Notes under the pieces: generated by a model
Databases searched by the model: none
What the model was told of the DNA's origin: nothing
The model's input: only the letters and a program-made list of their open reading frames with translations
DNA from: Candidatus Poriferihabitaceae bacterium
GTDB taxonomy: Bacteria > Pseudomonadota > Gammaproteobacteria > Arenicellales > Poriferihabitantaceae
Reading direction: 5' to 3'
Length of the DNA: 64,000 bases
NCBI GenBank assembly: GCA_965212085.1
Contig: OZ243042.1
Span: 2,217,990 to 2,281,989 of the forward strand
In this document: positions 11,281 to 60,601 of the stretch, piece by piece
Numbering within the stretch: the first letter of the stretch is position 1
Layout: each line of letters starts with the position of its first letter
Program-made: the position numbers and the translations under genes

Positions 11281-11585
11281 GTCATTCCCGCAGGATTTTA
11301 GCGGGAATCCAGTCCAACCGGTAGCGTAGTCGCTGACTTTCTGGATTCCCGATACGATGAAAAATATGGTCGCTATCGCTCCCTATTTTTCTATCGTTCG
11401 GGAATGACGGCAGAGGCGTAAGGAAGAACAAAGGAAGCAACCAAGCATCGCCGCTTTGACGCCGGATACCCACAAATGCGGGTATACACCGAGGAACGTG
11501 GCAACAACTCTGTCGTCATTCCCGAGCGTTAGTGTCCGTTGCCGCGCAAGCGGCTTACGGACACTTGGCGCTCTCGGGAATCCAG
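11281..11585. repeat. Mosaic intergenic repeat array R1 (units C, A-reverse, B-forward)
   Basis: Unit C at 11281-11312 is GTCATTCCCGCAGGATTTTAGCGGGAATCCAG. Unit A in reverse lies at 11341-11408. Unit B lies at 11464-11585, with its lead hairpin GGATACCCACAAATGCGGGTAT and the stem AGTGTCCGT...ACGGACACT. All units end in GTCATTCCCG / CGGGAATCCAG. Confidence 0.9.
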
Positions 11586-11712
11586 TTAACCACAAATCCC
11601 CCGAACCCGGAAATCGCCACCGGGGTTTTATGGCATAATTCCCGGCGTTTTTCTATGCTTGGCATTGCCAAATAACCATTCAATAACCGGCACGGGATAC
11701 ACGGGATACGGC

Positions 11713-14713: not shown

Positions 14714-15149
14714 TCATTTCCGAATGATATAAATGCGCCGTCATTCCCGAACGATAGAAAAATAGGGAGCGATAGCGACCGTTTGTTTCATTGCTATTCG
14801 GGAATCCAGAAATTAAACCAGCGGTGTCGGCGGTGGGTCGTGCGGCGCTGGATTCCCGAGTACGCAAGTGTCCGTAAGCCGCTAACGCGGCAACGGACAC
14901 TAACGCTCGGGAATGACGGCAGAGTTGTTGCCACGTTCCTCGGTGTCATACCCGCGCATGCGGGTATCCAGTTTTATATGGTTCGGCGGGGGTGGGCGTA
15001 GGGACAGATCGCGACCTGTCCGCATTTGCCAGTGAATTAGTGAACCTATAGAATTCCCACGACAATATGACCTACTCCGCTGTCATTCCCGAACGATAGA
15101 AAAATAGGGAGCGATAGCGACCGTTTGTTTCATCGTATCGGGAATCCAG
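14714..15149. repeat. Mosaic intergenic repeat array R2 (partial A, A-forward, B-reverse, D-like hairpin, A-forward)
   Basis: Unit A lies at 14740-14809 and again at 15072-15149. Unit B in reverse lies at 14848-14969 and includes an intact CGCTCGGGAATGACGGC site. A hairpin GGGACAGATCGCGACCTGTCC lies at 15001-15021. Confidence 0.9.
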
Positions 15150-26614: not shown

Positions 26615-27069
26615 GCGCGAGGGCGCGGGGTGGGTTGCGCGTGACGCGCATTGTGGGGGGGAGACCCCCCACGCCCCCCTGTGCGGCGCGGGAAAACATC
26701 CTGTTTTCAGCGCCGCTGCGCACATCCCTGTGCGCGATGGCCGGCTATCGCCGGGCCGAAAAAGCGGATCCGATACGATGAAAAATATGGTCGCTACGCT
26801 CCCTATTTTTCTATCGTTCGGGTATGACACCGAGGGCGTAAGGAAGGACAAAGGAAGCGCAAAAGAAGCGACCAAGCCTCTTCGTTTCCCTTGCCCGTCT
26901 TTACACCCCTGCGGCCGTCCAACCGGCGGCGTAGCCGCTAACTTCGGCGTGCGCAGGACGCGCACGGCGGCGCTGGAAACAGGATGTTTCCCCGCGCCGC
27001 AAGGGGGGTCTGCGGGGGGTCTCCCCCCGCAAATGCGCGTCACGCGCAACCGCACCCCGCGCCTCGCGC
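26615..27069. repeat. MITE-like element: imperfect inverted-repeat arms of about 120 bp flanking a centre that contains a repeat unit A
   Basis: The left arm (26615-26735) and the reverse complement of the right arm (26951-27069) align over their full length with scattered mismatches. Each arm carries the GGGGGGAGACCCCCC palindrome. Unit A in reverse lies at 26766-26828. Confidence 0.85.
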
Positions 27070-49127: not shown

Positions 49128-49295
49128 GTCATTCCCGAGCGTTAGTGTCCGTTGCCGCGCCAGCGGCTTACGGACACTTGCGTACTCGGGAATCCAGCCC
49201 CACGCACCCACCGCCGACTAACCCCCCGGATTCCCAAAAGCGATGAAAAATATAGCCGTCGCCACTCCCCATTTTTCTAACATCGCTCACATTCC
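49128..49295. repeat. Mosaic intergenic repeat array R4 (unit B forward, degenerate unit A reverse)
   Basis: Unit B lies at 49128-49197 (GTCATTCCCGAGCGTTAGTGTCCGTTGCCGCGCCAGCGGCTTACGGACACTTGCGTACTCGGGAATCCAG). A decayed unit A lies at 49228-49295. Confidence 0.85.
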
Positions 49296-56732: not shown

Positions 56733-57512
56733 TTATGAGTTGGACTGTTTTGTAATCGTTAAAAATATCCACCCCAAGAGATCATCCGTCTTTGGCATAA
56801 TAAAAAATCGAGTCGCATAGTTTTTATTTTTAAAATACTCCGCATACTGCCAAACATCACGTTGCCTGATATCTTCAATAACATAGACTCCATGATCAGT
56901 TAATCGGTCAATCACATTTTCAAACAAGGTAATACCCGCATGATATCTATGTAAGCCATCGTCAATCACAATATCAAACTTGCGGTCGGGTATTTGATTT
57001 AAGAATTGCTTAATACTTTGCGCGTTAGTTTGGTCGCATTGGTAAGTTTCAATTCGCTCATCGGTAAATAAGCAATTTGAATCAATATCAATTCCGGTGA
57101 TTGTTGCGTTGGCGAAATATTCCCGCCACATTCTTAAACTCGGGCCAAGCGAATTTTCATTGCTATCTTTTGGATTAATTCCATCCCGCCTGTCCAATGT
57201 TGCAATGCCACACTCAAGTAAATGCTCTATATTGTTGCGACTTTGAGAGAATAACAAATCATAAACGCTTGCATAGTCGTGGGTATATCCCCGGCGTTTG
57301 CCGAAATTGTGCGTTGCTATATCGGTATGCCCTTTGTCTGTGCCGTGCTTTTGGCAAAGCTTATGCAAATCGGTGTGGTGGTCTGCAAATGACGCAATGC
57401 CGACCATATTATTAACCCCGTGTTTTTTTAAACCACGCCTTGCAAAAGAATGGCGATATTTAACAGAGTGCTTGGTAAGTCCAAATCGTGGGTCAAATGG
57501 ATTAAGTTTCAT
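56733..57512 (-). CDS. class I SAM-dependent methyltransferase
   Basis: Start at MKLNPFDPRF (ATG 57512). Motifs LLECGIA, ITGIDID, FDIVIDDGLH and GVYVIEDI. Confidence 0.7.
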   Translation of the reverse strand: MKLNPFDPRFGLTKHSVKYRHSFARRGLKKHGVNNMVGIASFADHHTDLHKLCQKHGTDKGHTDIATHNFGKRRGYTHDYASVYDLLFSQSRNNIEHLLECGIATLDRRDGINPKDSNENSLGPSLRMWREYFANATITGIDIDSNCLFTDERIETYQCDQTNAQSIKQFLNQIPDRKFDIVIDDGLHRYHAGITLFENVIDRLTDHGVYVIEDIRQRDVWQYAEYFKNKNYATRFFIMPKTDDLLGWIFLTITKQSNS

Positions 57513-57709
57513 TTCAATTCTCGGTTTTCGATTATGCGTGTATTTTAGCACAGCCAACACACTGTCAGTGTCGATTTTATCCGAAATCCGGTTCGAATCT
57601 CATCATACAACAACCAATCCAGCAAGGGTATTAGGAAGTTAAGCACATCCAATAGGGGCTAACTTTATGATATATCACTAAAAACAGGTATTATCGCTGT
57701 TCTCGAATC

Positions 57710-57933
57710 AGGGGCAGGTGCGACCTGCCCCTACGCCACCGCTTAGCCACTTCCTTACGCCCACGTCGTCATTCCCGAACGATAGAAAAATAAGGAGCGC
57801 CAGCGACTATATTTTTCATCGTATCGGGAATCCAGTTTTATATGGTTCGGCGGGGCGCAGTCATGCGACTGGATTCCCGAGTACGCAAGTGTCCGTAAGC
57901 CGCTAACGCGACAACGGACACTAACGCTCGGGA
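57710..57933. repeat. Mosaic intergenic repeat array R5 (D hairpin, unit A forward, unit B reverse truncated by the IS)
   Basis: Hairpin AGGGGCAGGTGCGACCTGCCCCT lies at 57710-57732, and unit A starts at 57768. Unit B ends at ...CTAACGCTCGGGA (57933), where intact copies continue ATGACGGC. Confidence 0.9.
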
Positions 57934-57949
57934 GTATCTGTGTTCAAAG

Positions 57950-58909
57950 TCAAGTTTTTAATGGCGCCGAGGGGTAGTTTTCGACCCACGGCGTACCTCG
58001 GCGGATAATCGCGTGGCTCAGCAACAGCATCTTGCGCATTACCGCCACCAGCGCCACCTTGCCCGGCTTGCCGCGCTTGCACAGGCCCTGGTAAAAACGC
58101 CGCATGTCGCGGTCGTAACGGATCGCCGACAGCGCCGGCATATACAACGCCTGGCGCGCCGCCCCGCGTCCGCCGCGGATGCTGCGCTTGCCGTGGTACT
58201 GCCCGCTGTCGCGCGCCCACGGCGCCAGGCCGACCAGCGAGGTCAAGGTATGGCCGGAGCCTTCGCCCAATTCCGGCAGGTGGCCGAGCAACGCCGCCGC
58301 CGAAACCTGGCCGATGCCTTTGATGCTTTGTAAAAGCGCCGCACGCTCGGCCAGTTTGCCACTGCTCAAGGCCTGGGCGATGGCCTTATCTATGGCCGTA
58401 ATCTCGCGGTTCAGCCACTCAATGTGGCGGCGGCAGGATCGCACGGCAAGGAGCGAAGGCCGCTTCTCCACGCGGTTCAACTCCTGGATACGCTGATCCA
58501 CTAACTGCCGCCGACGCTCGGTTAGACCGCGCAAATGCTGGACTTCCGGGTCCACGGCAACCACCGCCGGCAAGGCCATCTGCTCGCCATATGCGCACAG
58601 CATGCGGGCATCCCAGGAGTCGGTCTTGGCTCCGATGCCGGCGGCGCGGGCGAACGCACGCGCCCTCGGCGGATGCGCCTGGCAGGCCTCAATATCGGTT
58701 GCCAGCAAGGCTTGAAGCAAACCTCGCTCGTAGCCGCCACTGGCTTCGAACACCGCCCGCGTAACGCCGCCGGCGCGCAGCCAGCGAAGCAACCGCGCAA
58801 TGCCACCGGCGGTGTTATCAAAACCTTTGGCCGTAGCGCCTGATATGGACGCATCGAGCCGATGTTTGCCGACGTCAATGCCGGCGACTATTTTCTTTTC
58901 AGGTTTCAT
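57950..58909 (-). CDS. IS110 family transposase
   Basis: MKPEKKIVAGIDVGKHRLD is the DEDD N-terminal domain. SIKGIGQVSAAALLGHLPELG and GKRSIRGGRGAARQALYMPALSAIRYD are the C-terminal IS116/IS110/IS902 domain. The ORF-track N-terminal extension to 59254 runs out of the element and is rejected. Confidence 0.9.
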   Translation of the reverse strand: MKPEKKIVAGIDVGKHRLDASISGATAKGFDNTAGGIARLLRWLRAGGVTRAVFEASGGYERGLLQALLATDIEACQAHPPRARAFARAAGIGAKTDSWDARMLCAYGEQMALPAVVAVDPEVQHLRGLTERRRQLVDQRIQELNRVEKRPSLLAVRSCRRHIEWLNREITAIDKAIAQALSSGKLAERAALLQSIKGIGQVSAAALLGHLPELGEGSGHTLTSLVGLAPWARDSGQYHGKRSIRGGRGAARQALYMPALSAIRYDRDMRRFYQGLCKRGKPGKVALVAVMRKMLLLSHAIIRRGTPWVENYPSAPLKT

Positions 58910-59126
58910 TTTATGTCTCCGAATGAGTATGATGTGATCGCACTGCACACTTGTATCCGGGGCTTGTTCCCCCCATGTATCTGTTCGCAGCTGCAAATCG
59001 GCGTGAGGGGTGTCGAACTCCCGAACGGCGCGAAAGCCATACTGGTTTTCCGCCCAATGACAGACGACGCGCCCCTCACGCCTCCCCCGCAAACTGGCCT
59101 GAATGCGGGGGAAAATCAACATACAA
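58910..59126 (-). ncRNA. candidate IS110 bridge RNA in the 5' non-coding end of the element
   Basis: On the minus strand there is a hairpin CCCCGC...GCGGGG (59085-59110). An 11-bp stem GGCGTGAGGGG/CCCCTCACGCC (59072-59082 with 59000-59010) encloses a 61-nt loop with an inner hairpin. A second internal loop surrounds GGGG..CCCC (58961-58975). Loop segments match the insertion-site flanks and the element ends (see findings). Confidence 0.5.
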
Positions 59127-59420
59127 ATGACGGCGGAGTTGTTGCCATGTTCTTCGGTGCCATACCCGCATTTGCGGGTAGTAGGGGCAGGTCGCGACCT
59201 GCCCCCGTCACCGCTTAGCCGCTTCCTTTGCTCTTCCTTACGCCTTTGCGTCATTTCCGAACGATAGAAAAATAAGGAGCGCCAGCGACTATATTTTTCA
59301 TCGTATCGGGAATCCAGTTTTATATGGTTCGGCGGGTCGCAGTCATGCGACTGGATTCCCGAGTACGCAAGTATCCGTAACCCGCCAACGCAACAACGGA
59401 CACTAACGCTCGCGAATGAC
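59127..59420. repeat. Mosaic intergenic repeat array R6 (tail of the interrupted unit B, then a second complete D-A-B composite)
   Basis: The array starts ATGACGGCGGAGTTGTTGCCATGTTCTTCGGTGCCATACCCGCATTTGCGGGTA. It continues with hairpin AGGGGCAGGTCGCGACCTGCCCC and unit A (GTCATTTCCGAACGATAG...). Unit B in reverse ends CGCTCGCGAATGAC at 59420. Confidence 0.9.
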
Positions 59421-59506
59421 GGCGTAGAATAAAAAATTTGCCAGCGAAATAGCGAATATGTACGGGACTGACGAACAGCTAGTGAGACAGTGATTGTTTC
59501 CCAAAC

Positions 59507-60601
59507 CTACACGTTAAACCGAAAGTGCATTACATCGCCGTCGCGGACCGTGTAGTCCTTGCCTTCAAGGCGCAGGCGGCCGGCTTCTCTTGCGCCTTGT
59601 TCGCCGTGGTAGCGAATGTAGTCTTCAAAGGCGGTGGTTTCGGCGCGAATAAATCCTTTTTCAAAGTCGCCGTGGATGACGCCCGCGGCTTGCGGGGCGC
59701 GGGCGCCGACCGGCACCGTCCACGCGCGCACTTCTTTGGGGCCGGCGGTGAAGTAGGTATGCAGTCCGAGCAGCGAGTAGCCGGCGCGGATCAGGCGGTT
59801 GAGGCCGGCTTCCCGCCAGCCCATTTCTTCGAGGAACAACAGCCCTTCGCGCTCGCTGAGTTCCGACAACTCCTGCTCAATGGCGGCGCAGATGGCCACT
59901 ACTTGGGCGTTTTCCTCGGCGGCGATTTTTTCGATGGCGGCGAGGCGCGGGTTGTCCGCCGGGCCGTCTTCGCTGAGGTTGGCGATGTACACGGTCGGCT
60001 TGGCGGTGAGAAAACACAGCGGTTTCAAGTGTTGCCGTTGATGCTCGTCCAGGGTCATGGCACGCACCGGTTCGCCGCGGTCGAGGTGCGCCTTTGCTTC
60101 GGCGAACAAGTCCCGCAACTCTATCGCCTGCTTGTCGCCGGCTTTGCTTTGGTTGGTCGCGCGTTGCAATGCTTTGTCCGCGGTTTCCATATCCGCCAGC
60201 AGCAGTTCGGTGTTGATGGTTTCAATGTCGGCGGCCGGGTCAACGGCACCCGGAACGTGGGTGACGGCGCTGTCTTCAAAGGCCCGCACCACGTGGGCGA
60301 TGGCGTCCACTTCGCGGATGTGGGCGAGGAAGCGGTTGCCGAGGCCCTCGCCCTGGGATGCCCCGGCCACCAGCCCGGCGATGTCAACGAACTCCATGGC
60401 GGCGGGGATGACCTTCTGCGGTTTGACCAGGGCCGCGAGTTGCGCGAGCCGCGGGTCGGGCACTGCCACCATGCCGACATTGGGGTCAATGGTGCAAAAG
60501 GCGTAGTTGGCGGCCTCGGCGGCGCGGGATTTGGTGAGCGCGTTGAAGAGGGTGGATTTGCCGACGTTGGGCAGGCCGACGATGCCGCATTTAAAACCCA
60601 C
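59507..60601 (-). CDS. ychF: redox-regulated ATPase YchF
   Basis: [23 protein letters not shown] and a C-terminal TGS-like domain ([13 protein letters not shown]). Confidence 0.95.

What the first reader, a model, noticed from the sequence alone, without database searches (positions are those of the whole stretch)
57934..59126. IS110-family element inserted in a GGGA|ATGAC repeat terminus, with a candidate bridge RNA whose two loops match its own target and donor junctions
Intact copies of repeat unit B read CGCTCGGGAATGACGGC (for example around 14905-14921). Here that sequence is split at 57933 (CGCTCGGGA) and 59127 (ATGACGGCGG). This delimits a roughly 1.19 kb insert with no terminal inverted repeats and at most a 1-nt duplication, as expected for IS110-type elements.
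The 217 nt upstream of the transposase ATG (58910-59126, read on the minus strand) can be drawn as two stem-enclosed internal loops.
- Loop 1 is closed by GGCGTGAGGGG/CCCCTCACGCC. Its 5' side carries GTCATT (59056-59061), identical to the left target flank GTCAT|T. Its 3' side carries CGTTCGGGA (59019-59027), the reverse complement of the right target flank TCCCGAGCG with one mismatch.
- Loop 2 carries ACAGATAC (58977-58984), identical to the last 8 nt of the element. It also carries ATACAA (58951-58956), the reverse complement of the first 6 nt, TTGTAT.
In both loops the left half is matched in the same sense and the right half in antisense. That is the geometry reported for the target-binding and donor-binding loops of IS621/IS110 bridge RNAs. 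The guides would then be programmed for the GTCATTCCCG termini that occur about ten times in this window.
Basis: partly seen in the sequence, partly recalled or inferred. Interest (0 to 1): 0.72.

Follow-up and report, generated by a model that had tools for sequence, protein, structure and literature searches.

The report
IS110-type insertion sequence with bridge RNA
This is a 1.19-kb IS110-family mobile element that carries its own two-loop "bridge" guide RNA, programmed for the repeat terminus it sits in; it is a well-supported, unnamed new member of a class described in 2024, not a new kind of system.

Summary
A 1193-bp element (57934-59126, minus strand) precisely interrupts the terminal stem of a 172-nt structured repeat. 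It encodes a 319-aa DEDD/Ser IS110 recombinase, 32% identical to IS621, with all five catalytic residues. Upstream of the ATG lies a ~176-nt RNA (58937-59112) with a 5' stem-loop and two stem-closed internal loops.

The four guide segments match the element's own target and its own end-to-end junction, same sense on the left and antisense on the right. Chance for all four matches is about 2e-8.

Across 12 orthologous guide sets and 32 insertion sites, the guides track their flanks (0 of 20,000 permutations). The stems show 20 compensatory pairs. A covariance model built without the window sequence hits it at 149.6 bits, and also picks out the published IS621 bridge RNA.

A sigma-70 promoter forms only at the circle junction.

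One peculiarity: the target core is TT but the donor core is CT.

Verdict: new member of a known kind. Activity and expression are untested.

The parts
57934..59126 (-). Whole insertion sequence, 1193 bp. On the minus strand it reads TTGTATG...ACAGATAC, with no terminal inverted repeats.
   Evidence: Junctions read. The empty site reconstructed from the flanks equals the intact repeat copy at 14890-14935, apart from one substitution beyond the repeat end. About 70% nucleotide identity over its full length to the nearest relatives L016, L024 and L025.
57950..58909 (-). Recombinase gene, 319 aa (DEDD RuvC-like domain plus Tnp domain with catalytic Ser). GGAG lies 8 nt before the ATG.
   Evidence: Pfam PF01548 (7e-19) and PF02371 (2e-16). 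PDB matches ISCro4 9t56 (6e-38) and IS621 8wt6 (1.6e-35). 32% identity to IS621; D12, E55, D97, D100 and S235 align with IS621 D11, E60, D102, D105 and S241.
58937..59112 (-). Bridge RNA gene, about 176 nt: 5' stem-loop, target-binding loop (TBL), donor-binding loop (DBL).
   Evidence: Covariance model R1, built without the window sequence, gives 149.6 bits, E 1.3e-36, full length. Fold; consensus structure and covariation.
59083..59112 (-). 5' stem-loop with the conserved GGCCAG loop.
   Evidence: 8 of 12 pairs have compensatory changes. The loop motif is shared with IS621.
59000..59082 (-). Target-binding loop module, closed by GGCGUGAGGGG/CCCCUCACGCC.
59056..59064 (-). Left target guide UCUGUCAUU. 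It has the same sense as the left target plus core (GCCGTCA-TT): 7 of 9 match, and the last 6 are contiguous.
59018..59027 (-). Right target guide CGUUCGGGAG, antisense to core plus right target. 8 Watson-Crick pairs and 2 wobbles with TTCCCGAGCG; perfect on the TCCCGAACG of the other repeat arm.
59016..59017 (-). Candidate handshake nucleotides (UU) 3' of the RTG. The first U can pair with donor A7.
   Evidence: Inferred by analogy with IS621 positions 81-82 (PMC11208158). The trinucleotide AGU is invariant in 12 orthologues.
58937..58999 (-). Donor-binding loop module.
   Evidence: Helix 5 has 7 of 12 pairs with compensatory changes.
58977..58984 (-). Left donor guide ACAGAUAC, the same sense as the last 8 nt of the element.
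   Evidence: It covaries with the right end in orthologues: UAGAUAC goes with CATAGATAC.
58950..58956 (-). Right donor guide AUACAAG, antisense to CT-TGTAT of the right-end/left-end circle junction.
58948..58949 (-). Candidate DBL handshake nucleotides (UG), which can pair with target C6 and A7 (GTCA).
   Evidence: Inferred from the IS621 model. AAGUG is invariant in 12 orthologues.
59118..59123 (-). -10 half (TATGTT) of the split promoter, in the left end.
   Evidence: No sigma-70-like site on this strand in the integrated state.
57948..57953 (-). -35 half (TTGACT) of the split promoter, in the right end, overlapping the stop codon. It lies 17 nt from TATGTT only when the ends are joined.
   Evidence: The same arrangement is seen in orthologues: TTGACA, then 17-18 nt, then TATGTT.
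59127..59135 (-). Left target half: the minus strand reads CGCCGTCAT, followed by the shared T.
57925..57933 (-). Right target half: the minus strand reads TCCCGAGCG.
57767..57933 (+). Body of the interrupted 172-nt structured repeat. Its last 5 nt are at 59127-59131. The IS target lies in its terminal stem.
   Evidence: Repeat copies listed. The ssDNA fold is -51.5 kcal/mol, z = -8.1.

Best explanation
This is an intact IS110-group insertion sequence of the IS621 type, that is, a bridge-RNA-guided recombinase.

Inferred life cycle. The element leaves as a circle. Joining right end to left end creates the donor site ACAGATA-CT-TGTATG. It also assembles a sigma-70 promoter (TTGACT, 17 nt, TATGTT) that transcribes a ~176-nt bridge RNA from the left end.

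Roles of the two loops.
- Target-binding loop: it holds the repeat terminus GTCA-TT-CCCGA(A/G)CG. The left guide pairs with the bottom strand and the right guide with the top strand.
- Donor-binding loop: it holds the circle junction in the same way.
- A tetramer of the DEDD/Ser recombinase then exchanges strands next to the 2-nt core, inserting the element without duplication.

Shown here:
- the anatomy of the element;
- homology of the protein and of the RNA to IS621;
- guide-to-flank complementarity and its covariation across orthologues;
- a precise insertion;
- the split promoter, at sequence level only.

Inferred, not shown:
- transcription of the RNA;
- existence of the circle;
- catalysis;
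- the handshake pairs.
For: Protein.
- Pfam DEDD_Tnp_IS110 plus Transposase_20.
- Best PDB matches are the two structurally solved bridge recombinases, ISCro4 and IS621.
- All five IS621 catalytic residues are conserved.

RNA.
- MFE -93.7 kcal/mol, z = -4.17.
- Consensus of 12 orthologues: 45 pairs, 96.1% of cells paired against 45-52% when slid; 20 pairs with double changes against 1-6 when slid; 0 of 500 shuffles reach the observed value.
- The guide segments fall in the unpaired internal loops.
- Model R1, built without the window, scores 149.6 bits at 58937-59112(-). Its top hit in an E. coli IS621 locus is the 177-nt published bridge RNA, end to end (13.1 bits, E 0.0025, filters off).

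Guides.
- The chance of all four matches together is about 2e-8.
- Over 32 unique insertion sites and 12 guide sets, a guide matches its own flank at 7.1+7.1 of 16 positions, against 5.4+5.0 for other elements' flanks.
- At non-core right-target positions the figures are 5.1 of 6 against 3.0 of 6. None of 20,000 permutations reaches the observed total.
- Single-base guide differences track single-base target differences: CTCCGGCG against CTCCAGCG, and CCGTCATT against CTGTCATT.
- The LDG tracks the right end (CAGATAC against TAGATAC).

Donor site. ACAGATA-CT-TGTAT is nearly the IS621 donor ACAGTAT-CT-TGTAT.

Promoter. It exists only across the joined ends, as reported for IS621 (PMC11208158).

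Target choice. REP-like repeats are typical targets of the family (PMC12288879; reference list of PMC11208160).
Against: - There are no expression or activity data.
- The element is single-copy in its 2.77-Mb contig, although at least four better-matching sites in this window alone are unoccupied. It may be inactive, tightly repressed, or a recent arrival.
- The target core (TT) differs from the donor core (CT), and IS621 prefers CT in both (PMC11208160).
- The second TBL handshake position (U) cannot pair with donor T6.
- The R1 hit on IS621 is weak (13 bits). RNA-level homology to the validated RNA therefore rests mostly on shared architecture and shared donor sequence.
- The orthologue sequences are related to each other, so the shuffle statistics overstate independence.
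Confidence: 0.93

Rival explanations
1. The leader is only an ordinary structured 5' UTR or translational control region of an IS110 transposase. On this view the four short matches to the flanks are chance, or reflect subterminal protein-binding repeats rather than RNA guides.
For: The region does lie between the element end and the ATG. It contains the RBS just downstream of the structured part. No Rfam family matches it.
Against: - The joint chance of the four matches is about 2e-8.
- The loop segments change together with the flanks across 12 guide sets.
- Left-sense and right-antisense geometry is kept in both loops.
- The Rfam negative is uninformative, because IS621's own bridge RNA also gets no Rfam hit.
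- Protein-binding repeats would not need to track the host target sequence.
Confidence: 0.02
2. The element is a dead relic. On this view the bridge RNA and recombinase are recognisable, but the element no longer moves, and the RNA/flank matches are a fossil of one past insertion.
For: The element is single-copy in a 2.77-Mb contig. Four perfect GTCATTCCCGAACG sites within 64 kb are unoccupied. No promoter is found in the integrated state. Decayed relatives exist, such as L010 with a ~95-nt deletion.
Against: - The ORF is full length and all catalytic residues are present.
- Every helix of the RNA is intact and scores 149.6 bits against the orthologue model.
- Both promoter halves are present.
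- Lack of a promoter in the integrated state is the normal condition for IS621-type elements (PMC11208158).
Confidence: 0.2
3. The element belongs to the IS1111 subgroup and is guided by a seekRNA encoded at its 3' end.
For: It belongs to the same superfamily, and it also targets repeats.
Against: Only 16 nt separate the stop codon from the right end, while 217 nt precede the ATG. No subterminal inverted repeats are reported within the element by the repeat finder. The RNA aligns with the left-end-encoded IS621 RNA.
Confidence: 0.01

Closest known systems
IS621 (E. coli), the founding bridge-RNA recombinase (Durrant et al. 2024, PMC11208160; Hiraizumi et al. 2024, PMC11208158)
   Same: - Same domain pair and catalytic D-E-D-D-S residues.
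- The RNA is encoded in the left end, about 176-177 nt, with a 5' stem-loop carrying a GGCCAG loop, then the TBL, then the DBL.
- LTG and LDG are in sense, RTG and RDG in antisense.
- The donor is almost identical (ACAGATA-CT-TGTAT here, ACAGTAT-CT-TGTAT in IS621).
- The LDG ends ...C-A, with a mismatch at core position 9, in both.
- The -35/-10 promoter is split across the ends.
- It inserts into extragenic repeats.
   Different: - Only 32% protein identity.
- The RNA is only weakly alignable (13 bits).
- The target is GTCA-TT-CCCGA rather than ATCAGGC-CT-AC.
- The target core is TT with LTG ...UU, while the RTG keeps AG (a CT reading).
- The RTG is longer (up to 10 nt against 4-7).
- The RDG pairs contiguously rather than with two flipped-out U.
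ISCro4 / IS622 (PDB 9t56; bioRxiv 10.1101/2025.05.14.653916)
   Same: It is the best PDB sequence match (6e-38) and has the same family architecture.
   Different: It is distant in sequence: the phmmer alignment spans residues 9-308 but is gapped. Its RNA and target were not compared here.
Unnamed orthologues in metagenome assemblies and MAGs (P0002-P0006, L001-L047; Dehalococcoidia and gammaproteobacterial MAGs)
   Same: - 52-62% protein identity and about 70% nucleotide identity for the closest.
- The RNA is alignable along its whole length.
- The same donor site.
- Many share the LTG ...GUCAUU and insert in GTCATT-CC... REP-like palindromes.
   Different: Their RTGs differ, each matching its own host's repeats. 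One sub-clade (P0003 type) uses ATCA-CT with a canonical CT/CT core.
ISPpu9 / ISPpu10 of Pseudomonas putida (PMC12288879; bioRxiv 10.64898/2026.03.19.712850)
   Same: These are IS110-family elements that insert specifically into repetitive extragenic palindromes.
   Different: No sequence comparison was made here. The abstract for ISPpu10 reports a bridge RNA with a distinct architecture.
ISMno7-family transposases (the nearest named IS in the plasmid collection)
   Same: IS110-family transposase with 42% identity over 97% of the protein.
   Different: It is too distant to be the same IS. Its RNA and target were not examined.

Membership tests
IS110 family, IS110 group (bridge-RNA recombinases) | N-terminal DEDD RuvC-like domain plus C-terminal Tnp domain with a catalytic serine | tested here: met
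   PF01548 and PF02371. D12, E55, D97, D100 and S235 align to IS621 D11, E60, D102, D105 and S241. PDB hits to IS621 and ISCro4.
IS110 family, IS110 group (bridge-RNA recombinases) | Long non-coding left end upstream of the recombinase gene, very short right end, no terminal inverted repeats, and no target duplication beyond the core | tested here: met
   217 nt precede the ATG and 16 nt follow the stop codon. No inverted repeat involving the ends of the element is found. The empty-site reconstruction shows only a shared T.
IS110 family, IS110 group (bridge-RNA recombinases) | A left-end-encoded ~150-250-nt RNA with a 5' stem-loop and two stem-closed internal loops, conserved with covariation | tested here: met
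   (20 compensatory pairs; 96% of cells paired against about 50% in slid controls). Covariance-model hits.
IS110 family, IS110 group (bridge-RNA recombinases) | First loop: the 5' strand has the same sense as left target plus core, and the 3' strand is antisense to core plus right target. Both covary with insertion sites. | tested here: met
   Window: 6 contiguous matches (7 of 9) on the left and 10 of 10 on the right if two wobbles are counted. Across 32 sites and 12 guide sets, 0 of 20,000 permutations reach the observed match.
IS110 family, IS110 group (bridge-RNA recombinases) | [quoted passage not shown] | tested here: met
   ACAGAUAC matches the right end and AUACAAG is antisense to CT-TGTAT. 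The LDG covaries with the right end (CAGATAC against TAGATAC).
IS110 family, IS110 group (bridge-RNA recombinases) | The same conserved core dinucleotide (CT in IS621) in target and donor, flanking the integrated element | tested here: inconclusive
   The donor core is CT. The target core in intact repeats is TT, the left junction keeps TT and the right junction keeps CT. This holds in 21 of 21 sites of the GTCATT clade, while the sister clade is CT/CT. T9 is kept. The published work says the first core base is less conserved and that TT cores support recombination (PMC11208158).
IS110 family, IS110 group (bridge-RNA recombinases) | A promoter for the RNA reconstituted only at the circle junction | tested here: met
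   At sequence level only: TTGACT, 17 nt, TATGTT across the joined ends. No such site is found in the integrated state. Transcription was not tested.
IS110 family, IS110 group (bridge-RNA recombinases) | RNA-dependent, reprogrammable recombination activity | not testable with these tools
   This needs an in vivo or in vitro recombination assay.
IS1111 group (seekRNA at the 3' end, subterminal inverted repeats) | Non-coding RNA encoded downstream of the transposase gene, and subterminal inverted repeats | tested here: not met
   Only 16 nt follow the stop codon, and no subterminal inverted repeats are found.
Same IS as a named element (ISfinder-style identity criterion; criterion recalled from general knowledge) | Near-identity to a named IS | tested here: not met
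   The best named relative is the ISMno7 family at 42% aa, and IS621 is at 32% aa. The best unnamed relatives reach 62% aa and about 70% nt. ISfinder itself was not searched.

The most novel reading that the evidence does not exclude
The GTCATT clade to which this element belongs may be naturally wired for unequal cores: target TT and donor CT. The LTG reads UU, while RTG, LDG and RDG read C at core position 8.

In 21 of 21 independent sites the left junction keeps the target's T and the right junction keeps the donor's C. Core position 8 therefore acts as a natural strand-of-origin marker.

This would show that in wild populations the top strand alone fixes the product. That fits the top-strand-insertion model (bioRxiv 10.1101/2025.10.25.684509) or top-strand-templated repair. 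The rG.dT wobble before exchange turning into a G-C pair after exchange in the target loop might also bias the reaction forward.
Probability: 0.25. Interest if true: 0.45.

Novelty: new member of a known kind. Interest (0 to 1): 0.3.

Why it matters
- **Tool mining.** It adds a well-documented natural bridge recombinase and a clade of at least 12 guide variants, distant from IS621 and ISCro4 (32% identity to IS621). These come with mapped guides, donor, target, handshake candidates and promoter. Such information is used when searching for new programmable recombinases.
- **Modular retargeting.** Within one clade the left guide (GUCAUU) stays fixed while the right guide is re-tuned to each host's REP-like repeat.
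- **Genome annotation.** The public 390-aa gene call runs through the RNA gene. The ~172-nt repeat family is the landing pad for the element.

None of this changes current understanding of the mechanism.

Tried and rejected
- **Rfam scans.** The scan of 57000-60000 gave only sub-threshold chance hits. The control scan of an E. coli IS621 locus showed that Rfam 15 also misses the validated bridge RNA. The negative result is therefore meaningless.
- **Exact-protein look-up.** The 319-aa product is not on record, because the public call is a 390-aa over-extension (P0001).
- **Metagenome (JGI) pattern scans.** No further copies of this exact element were found, so the test "same loops, other sites" could only be done on multi-copy orthologues.
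- **Model R1 on IS621.** With default filters it found nothing. A hit appeared only with filters off.
- **Alternative core register.** I considered AC instead of CT as the core, because ACT is shared by both junctions in the P0003 clade. I rejected it because the donor aligns base for base with IS621 ACAGTAT-CT-TGTAT, and T9 is the invariant position in the published structure.
- **The 434-aa ORF.** The ORF from 59254 is not the true gene. Orthologues are 312-319 aa, an RBS precedes 58909, and the upstream part is the RNA gene.
- **Organism.** The organism behind the window was not identified.
Full report
**1. Observation**

Every coordinate in the finding is correct.
- On the plus strand the repeat terminus CGCTCGGGA ends at 57933 and resumes with ATGAC at 59127.
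- Joining the two flanks gives CGGACACTAACGCTCGGGA|ATGACGGCGGAGTTGTTGC. This equals the uninterrupted copy at 14890-14935 through 14 nt beyond the repeat, apart from one substitution there (GGCGGAG against GGCAGAG).
- The insert is therefore exactly 1193 bp, with no duplication or deletion apart from a T shared by both junctions.
- The 14-mer GTCATTCCCGARCG occurs 10 times in the window with at most 1 mismatch, against 0.05 expected.
- No inverted repeat joins the ends of the element.

**2. The protein**

The real gene runs from ATG 58909 to the stop at 57950 on the minus strand and encodes 319 aa. GGAG lies 8 nt upstream of the ATG.
- Pfam finds DEDD_Tnp_IS110 and Transposase_20.
- The only PDB sequence matches are the two solved bridge recombinases: ISCro4 (6e-38) and IS621 (1.6e-35).
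- Against an E. coli IS621 copy fetched here (L030), identity is 32% over 315 aa. D12, E55, D97, D100 and S235 align with the IS621 catalytic residues D11, E60, D102, D105 and S241 (residues as named in PMC11208158).
- The longer 434-aa ORF and the public 390-aa call (P0001) run through the RNA gene and are artefacts. Orthologues are 312-319 aa.

**3. The RNA**

*Fold.* The 217-nt leader folds at -93.7 kcal/mol (z = -4.17). The fold has a 5' hairpin, a loop module closed by GGCGUGAGGGG/CCCCUCACGCC, and a second loop module.

*Relatives collected.*
- Dehalococcoidia and gammaproteobacterial MAGs from the genome collection, about 52% aa identity.
- Metagenome contigs carrying proteins at 53-63% identity.

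*Conservation of the structure.* Twelve distinct leaders align over their whole length.
- RNAalifold recovers the same architecture, with 45 pairs.
- 96.1% of cells pair, against 45-52% when partners are slid.
- 20 pairs show changes on both sides, against 1-6 when slid. No shuffle in 500 reaches the observed value.
- The guide segments lie in the unpaired internal loops.

*Covariance models.*
- Rfam gives nothing for the window. It also gives nothing for the validated IS621 RNA, so it simply lacks the family.
- A model built from 10 orthologues, excluding the window, hits 58937-59112(-) end to end at 149.6 bits, E 1.3e-36. This is the only strong hit in 64 kb.
- With filters off, its best hit in the 3.2-kb IS621 locus is 1575-1749. 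That is the published 177-nt bridge RNA, aligned from the first to the last model position (13.1 bits, E 0.0025).
- The IS621 RNA sequence I recalled from memory was verified as 100% identical in E. coli genomes, next to the annotated IS621 transposase.

**4. Guides in the window element**

Read on the minus strand, the junctions are CCGCCGTCAT|TTGTATG...CACAGATAC|TCCCGAGCG. With the IS621 numbering (LT 1-7, core 8-9):
- target = GCCGTCA-TT-CCCGAGCG;
- donor (circle junction) = ACAGATA-CT-TGTATG. IS621's donor is ACAGTAT-CT-TGTAT.

The guide segments are:

| Guide | Sequence | Coordinates | Match |
|---|---|---|---|
| LTG | UCUGUCAUU | 59056-59064 | 7 of 9 positions of LT plus core; last six contiguous |
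| RTG | CGUUCGGGAG | 59018-59027 | reverse complement of CTCCCGAACG; pairs with all ten positions 8-17 of the used target if rG.dT (position 8) and rU.dG (position 15) wobbles count; perfect on the TCCCGAACG of the other repeat arm |
| LDG | ACAGAUAC | 58977-58984 | LD plus C8, followed by a mismatched A, exactly as in IS621 (ACAGUAUC-A) |
| RDG | AUACAAG | 58950-58956 | antisense to CT-TGTAT, so it spans the circle junction |

The nucleotides just 3' of the two core-binding AG dinucleotides sit where IS621 has its handshake guides.
- U at 59017 could pair with donor A7.
- UG at 58948-58949 could pair with target C6 and A7.
- This is inference by analogy.

In shuffles of the leader the four matches occur at 3.9%, 3.5%, 0.2% and 0.7% singly, and never together in 20,000 trials.

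**5. Covariation of guides with flanks**

Guide strands and both flanks were extracted for every locus. Over 32 unique sites and 12 guide sets:
- a guide matches its own flanks at 7.1 of 8 (left) and 7.1 of 8 (right);
- it matches the flanks of elements with other guides at 5.4 and 5.0;
- at the six non-core right-target positions the figures are 5.1 against 3.0;
- none of 20,000 permutations of sites among elements reaches the observed total.

Examples:

| Element(s) | Guide (RTGs as reverse complement) | Flanks |
|---|---|---|
| P0061 element | RTG CTCCGGCG | CTCCGGCG in 9 of 9 loci |
| P0095 element | RTG CTCCAGCG | CTCCAGCG in 5 of 7 loci that include the right flank |
| L001-3 | RTG CTTCGAGC | CTTCGAGC |
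| L004 | RTG CTCTGAGA | CTCTGAGA |
| L004 versus L005-9 | LTG CUGUCAUU versus CCGUCAUU | CTGTCATT versus CCGTCATT in L005 and L007-L009 (L006 flank ACGTCATT) |
| L025 | LTG UCUGUGAC | TCTGTGAC |

The donor loop covaries too. Elements whose right end reads CATAGATAC have LDG UAGAUAC.

One element (L029, with a truncated protein) matches poorly on the left.

Because the sequences are related, the permutation figure is not a true probability. The single-base correspondences are nonetheless direct.

**6. Promoter**

TTGACT (57948-57953, overlapping the stop codon) and TATGTT (59118-59123) are 17 nt apart only when right end and left end are joined.
- Orthologues have TTGACA, then 17-18 nt, then TATGTT across the joined ends.
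- In the integrated state no sigma-70-like site is found on that strand.
- This is the arrangement reported for IS621. Transcription itself is untested.

**7. The target**

The landing site is the terminal stem of a ~172-nt repeat.
- Full copies lie at 14739-14917 and 59249-59420, with several partial copies.
- As single-stranded DNA it folds into three hairpins closed by the terminal inverted repeat (-51.5 kcal/mol, z = -8.1).
- Both arms of that stem carry the target.
- The orthologues likewise sit in GTCATT-CC... palindromic, REP-like sequences. Insertion into REP elements is a known habit of the family (PMC12288879; reference 11 of PMC11208160).

**8. The one peculiarity: unequal cores**

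- In this element, and in all 21 unique sites of the GTCATT clade, the left junction reads TT and the right junction reads CT.
- In that clade the LTG ends UU, while RTG, LDG and RDG read C at position 8.
- The sister clade is CT/CT.
- Intact repeats in the window show that the target core is TT.

This agrees with published statements: T9 is nearly invariant, the first core base is less conserved, and TT cores work. It is also the outcome expected if the top strands, cut after position 9, define the product. That fits the IS621 structural model, and it fits the top-strand-insertion model of a 2025 preprint. It is a variant of detail, not a departure from the family.

**9. Verdict**

- The element is an unnamed IS110-group insertion sequence with a bona fide bridge-RNA gene.
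- Its closest relatives are uncultured-genome elements at no more than 62% aa and about 70% nt identity.
- The nearest named relatives are at 42% (ISMno7 family) and 32% (IS621).
- It is a new member of a known kind.
- Not shown: transcription, circle formation and recombination activity.
- The single copy number, with several unoccupied perfect targets nearby, leaves open that it is quiescent.

Noticed in passing
window 58910-59254 (minus strand): The public gene call for the recombinase (P0001, 390 aa) and the 434-aa mechanical ORF start upstream of the true ATG (58909). Both read through the bridge-RNA gene, so the annotation over-extends by about 71 codons.
   Followed up: partly
window 57767-57933 + 59127-59131; also 14739-14917, 59249-59420; partial copies at 11341-11409, 11515-11586, 15082-15149, 26770-26828, 49128-49279: A ~172-nt repeat family with 13-15-nt terminal inverted repeats (GTCATTCCCGA[A/G]CG). 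It folds as ssDNA into a three-hairpin cruciform (-51.5 kcal/mol, z = -8.1). It looks MITE- or REP-like, its function is unknown, and it serves as the landing pad for the IS.
   Followed up: partly
window 57706-57740 and 59176-59200: A GC-rich hairpin (GGGGCAGGTCGCGACCTGCCCC), followed by CACCGCTTAGCC.CTTCCTT, precedes each of the two repeat copies next to the IS. The intergenic region is thus a tandem array of two kinds of repeat unit.
   Followed up: no
L001-L009, L031-L046 and the window (left and right junctions): In 21 of 21 unique sites of the GTCATT clade the left junction core is TT and the right junction core is CT. The LTG ends UU while the RTG core-binding bases are AG. The sister clade (L014-L029) is CT/CT.
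   Followed up: partly
L010:1376-1520 (Candidatus Spongiihabitans MAG): A decayed relative of the window IS. [quoted passage not shown] It is still flanked by ...CGTCAT|T.
   Followed up: partly
L030:1478-1640 (E. coli ETEC-2264, IS621 locus): A 72-nt partial left end of IS621 is duplicated in tandem. The junction lies exactly after the LTG-coding ATCGGGCCT, which mimics the natural target ATCAGGCCT. It looks as if IS621 inserted into the LTG-coding DNA of another copy.
   Followed up: no
L002:1250-1300 and 2440-2500: The target of this Dehalococcoidia copy is itself tandemly repeated (TCGAGCGCCTTAATGTCAT occurs on both sides of the IS). Several target units therefore lie side by side.
   Followed up: no
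L014/L015:919-982: A second TTGTATG motif lies 64 nt upstream of the real left end. It could be a remnant of another left end or a chance match.
   Followed up: no
window 26989-27048 (minus strand): A GC-rich (77%) nested hairpin gave a weak hit to the bridge-RNA model (17 bits, E 0.005), with most of the model skipped. This is probably just a stable palindrome close to a partial copy of the repeat.
   Followed up: no
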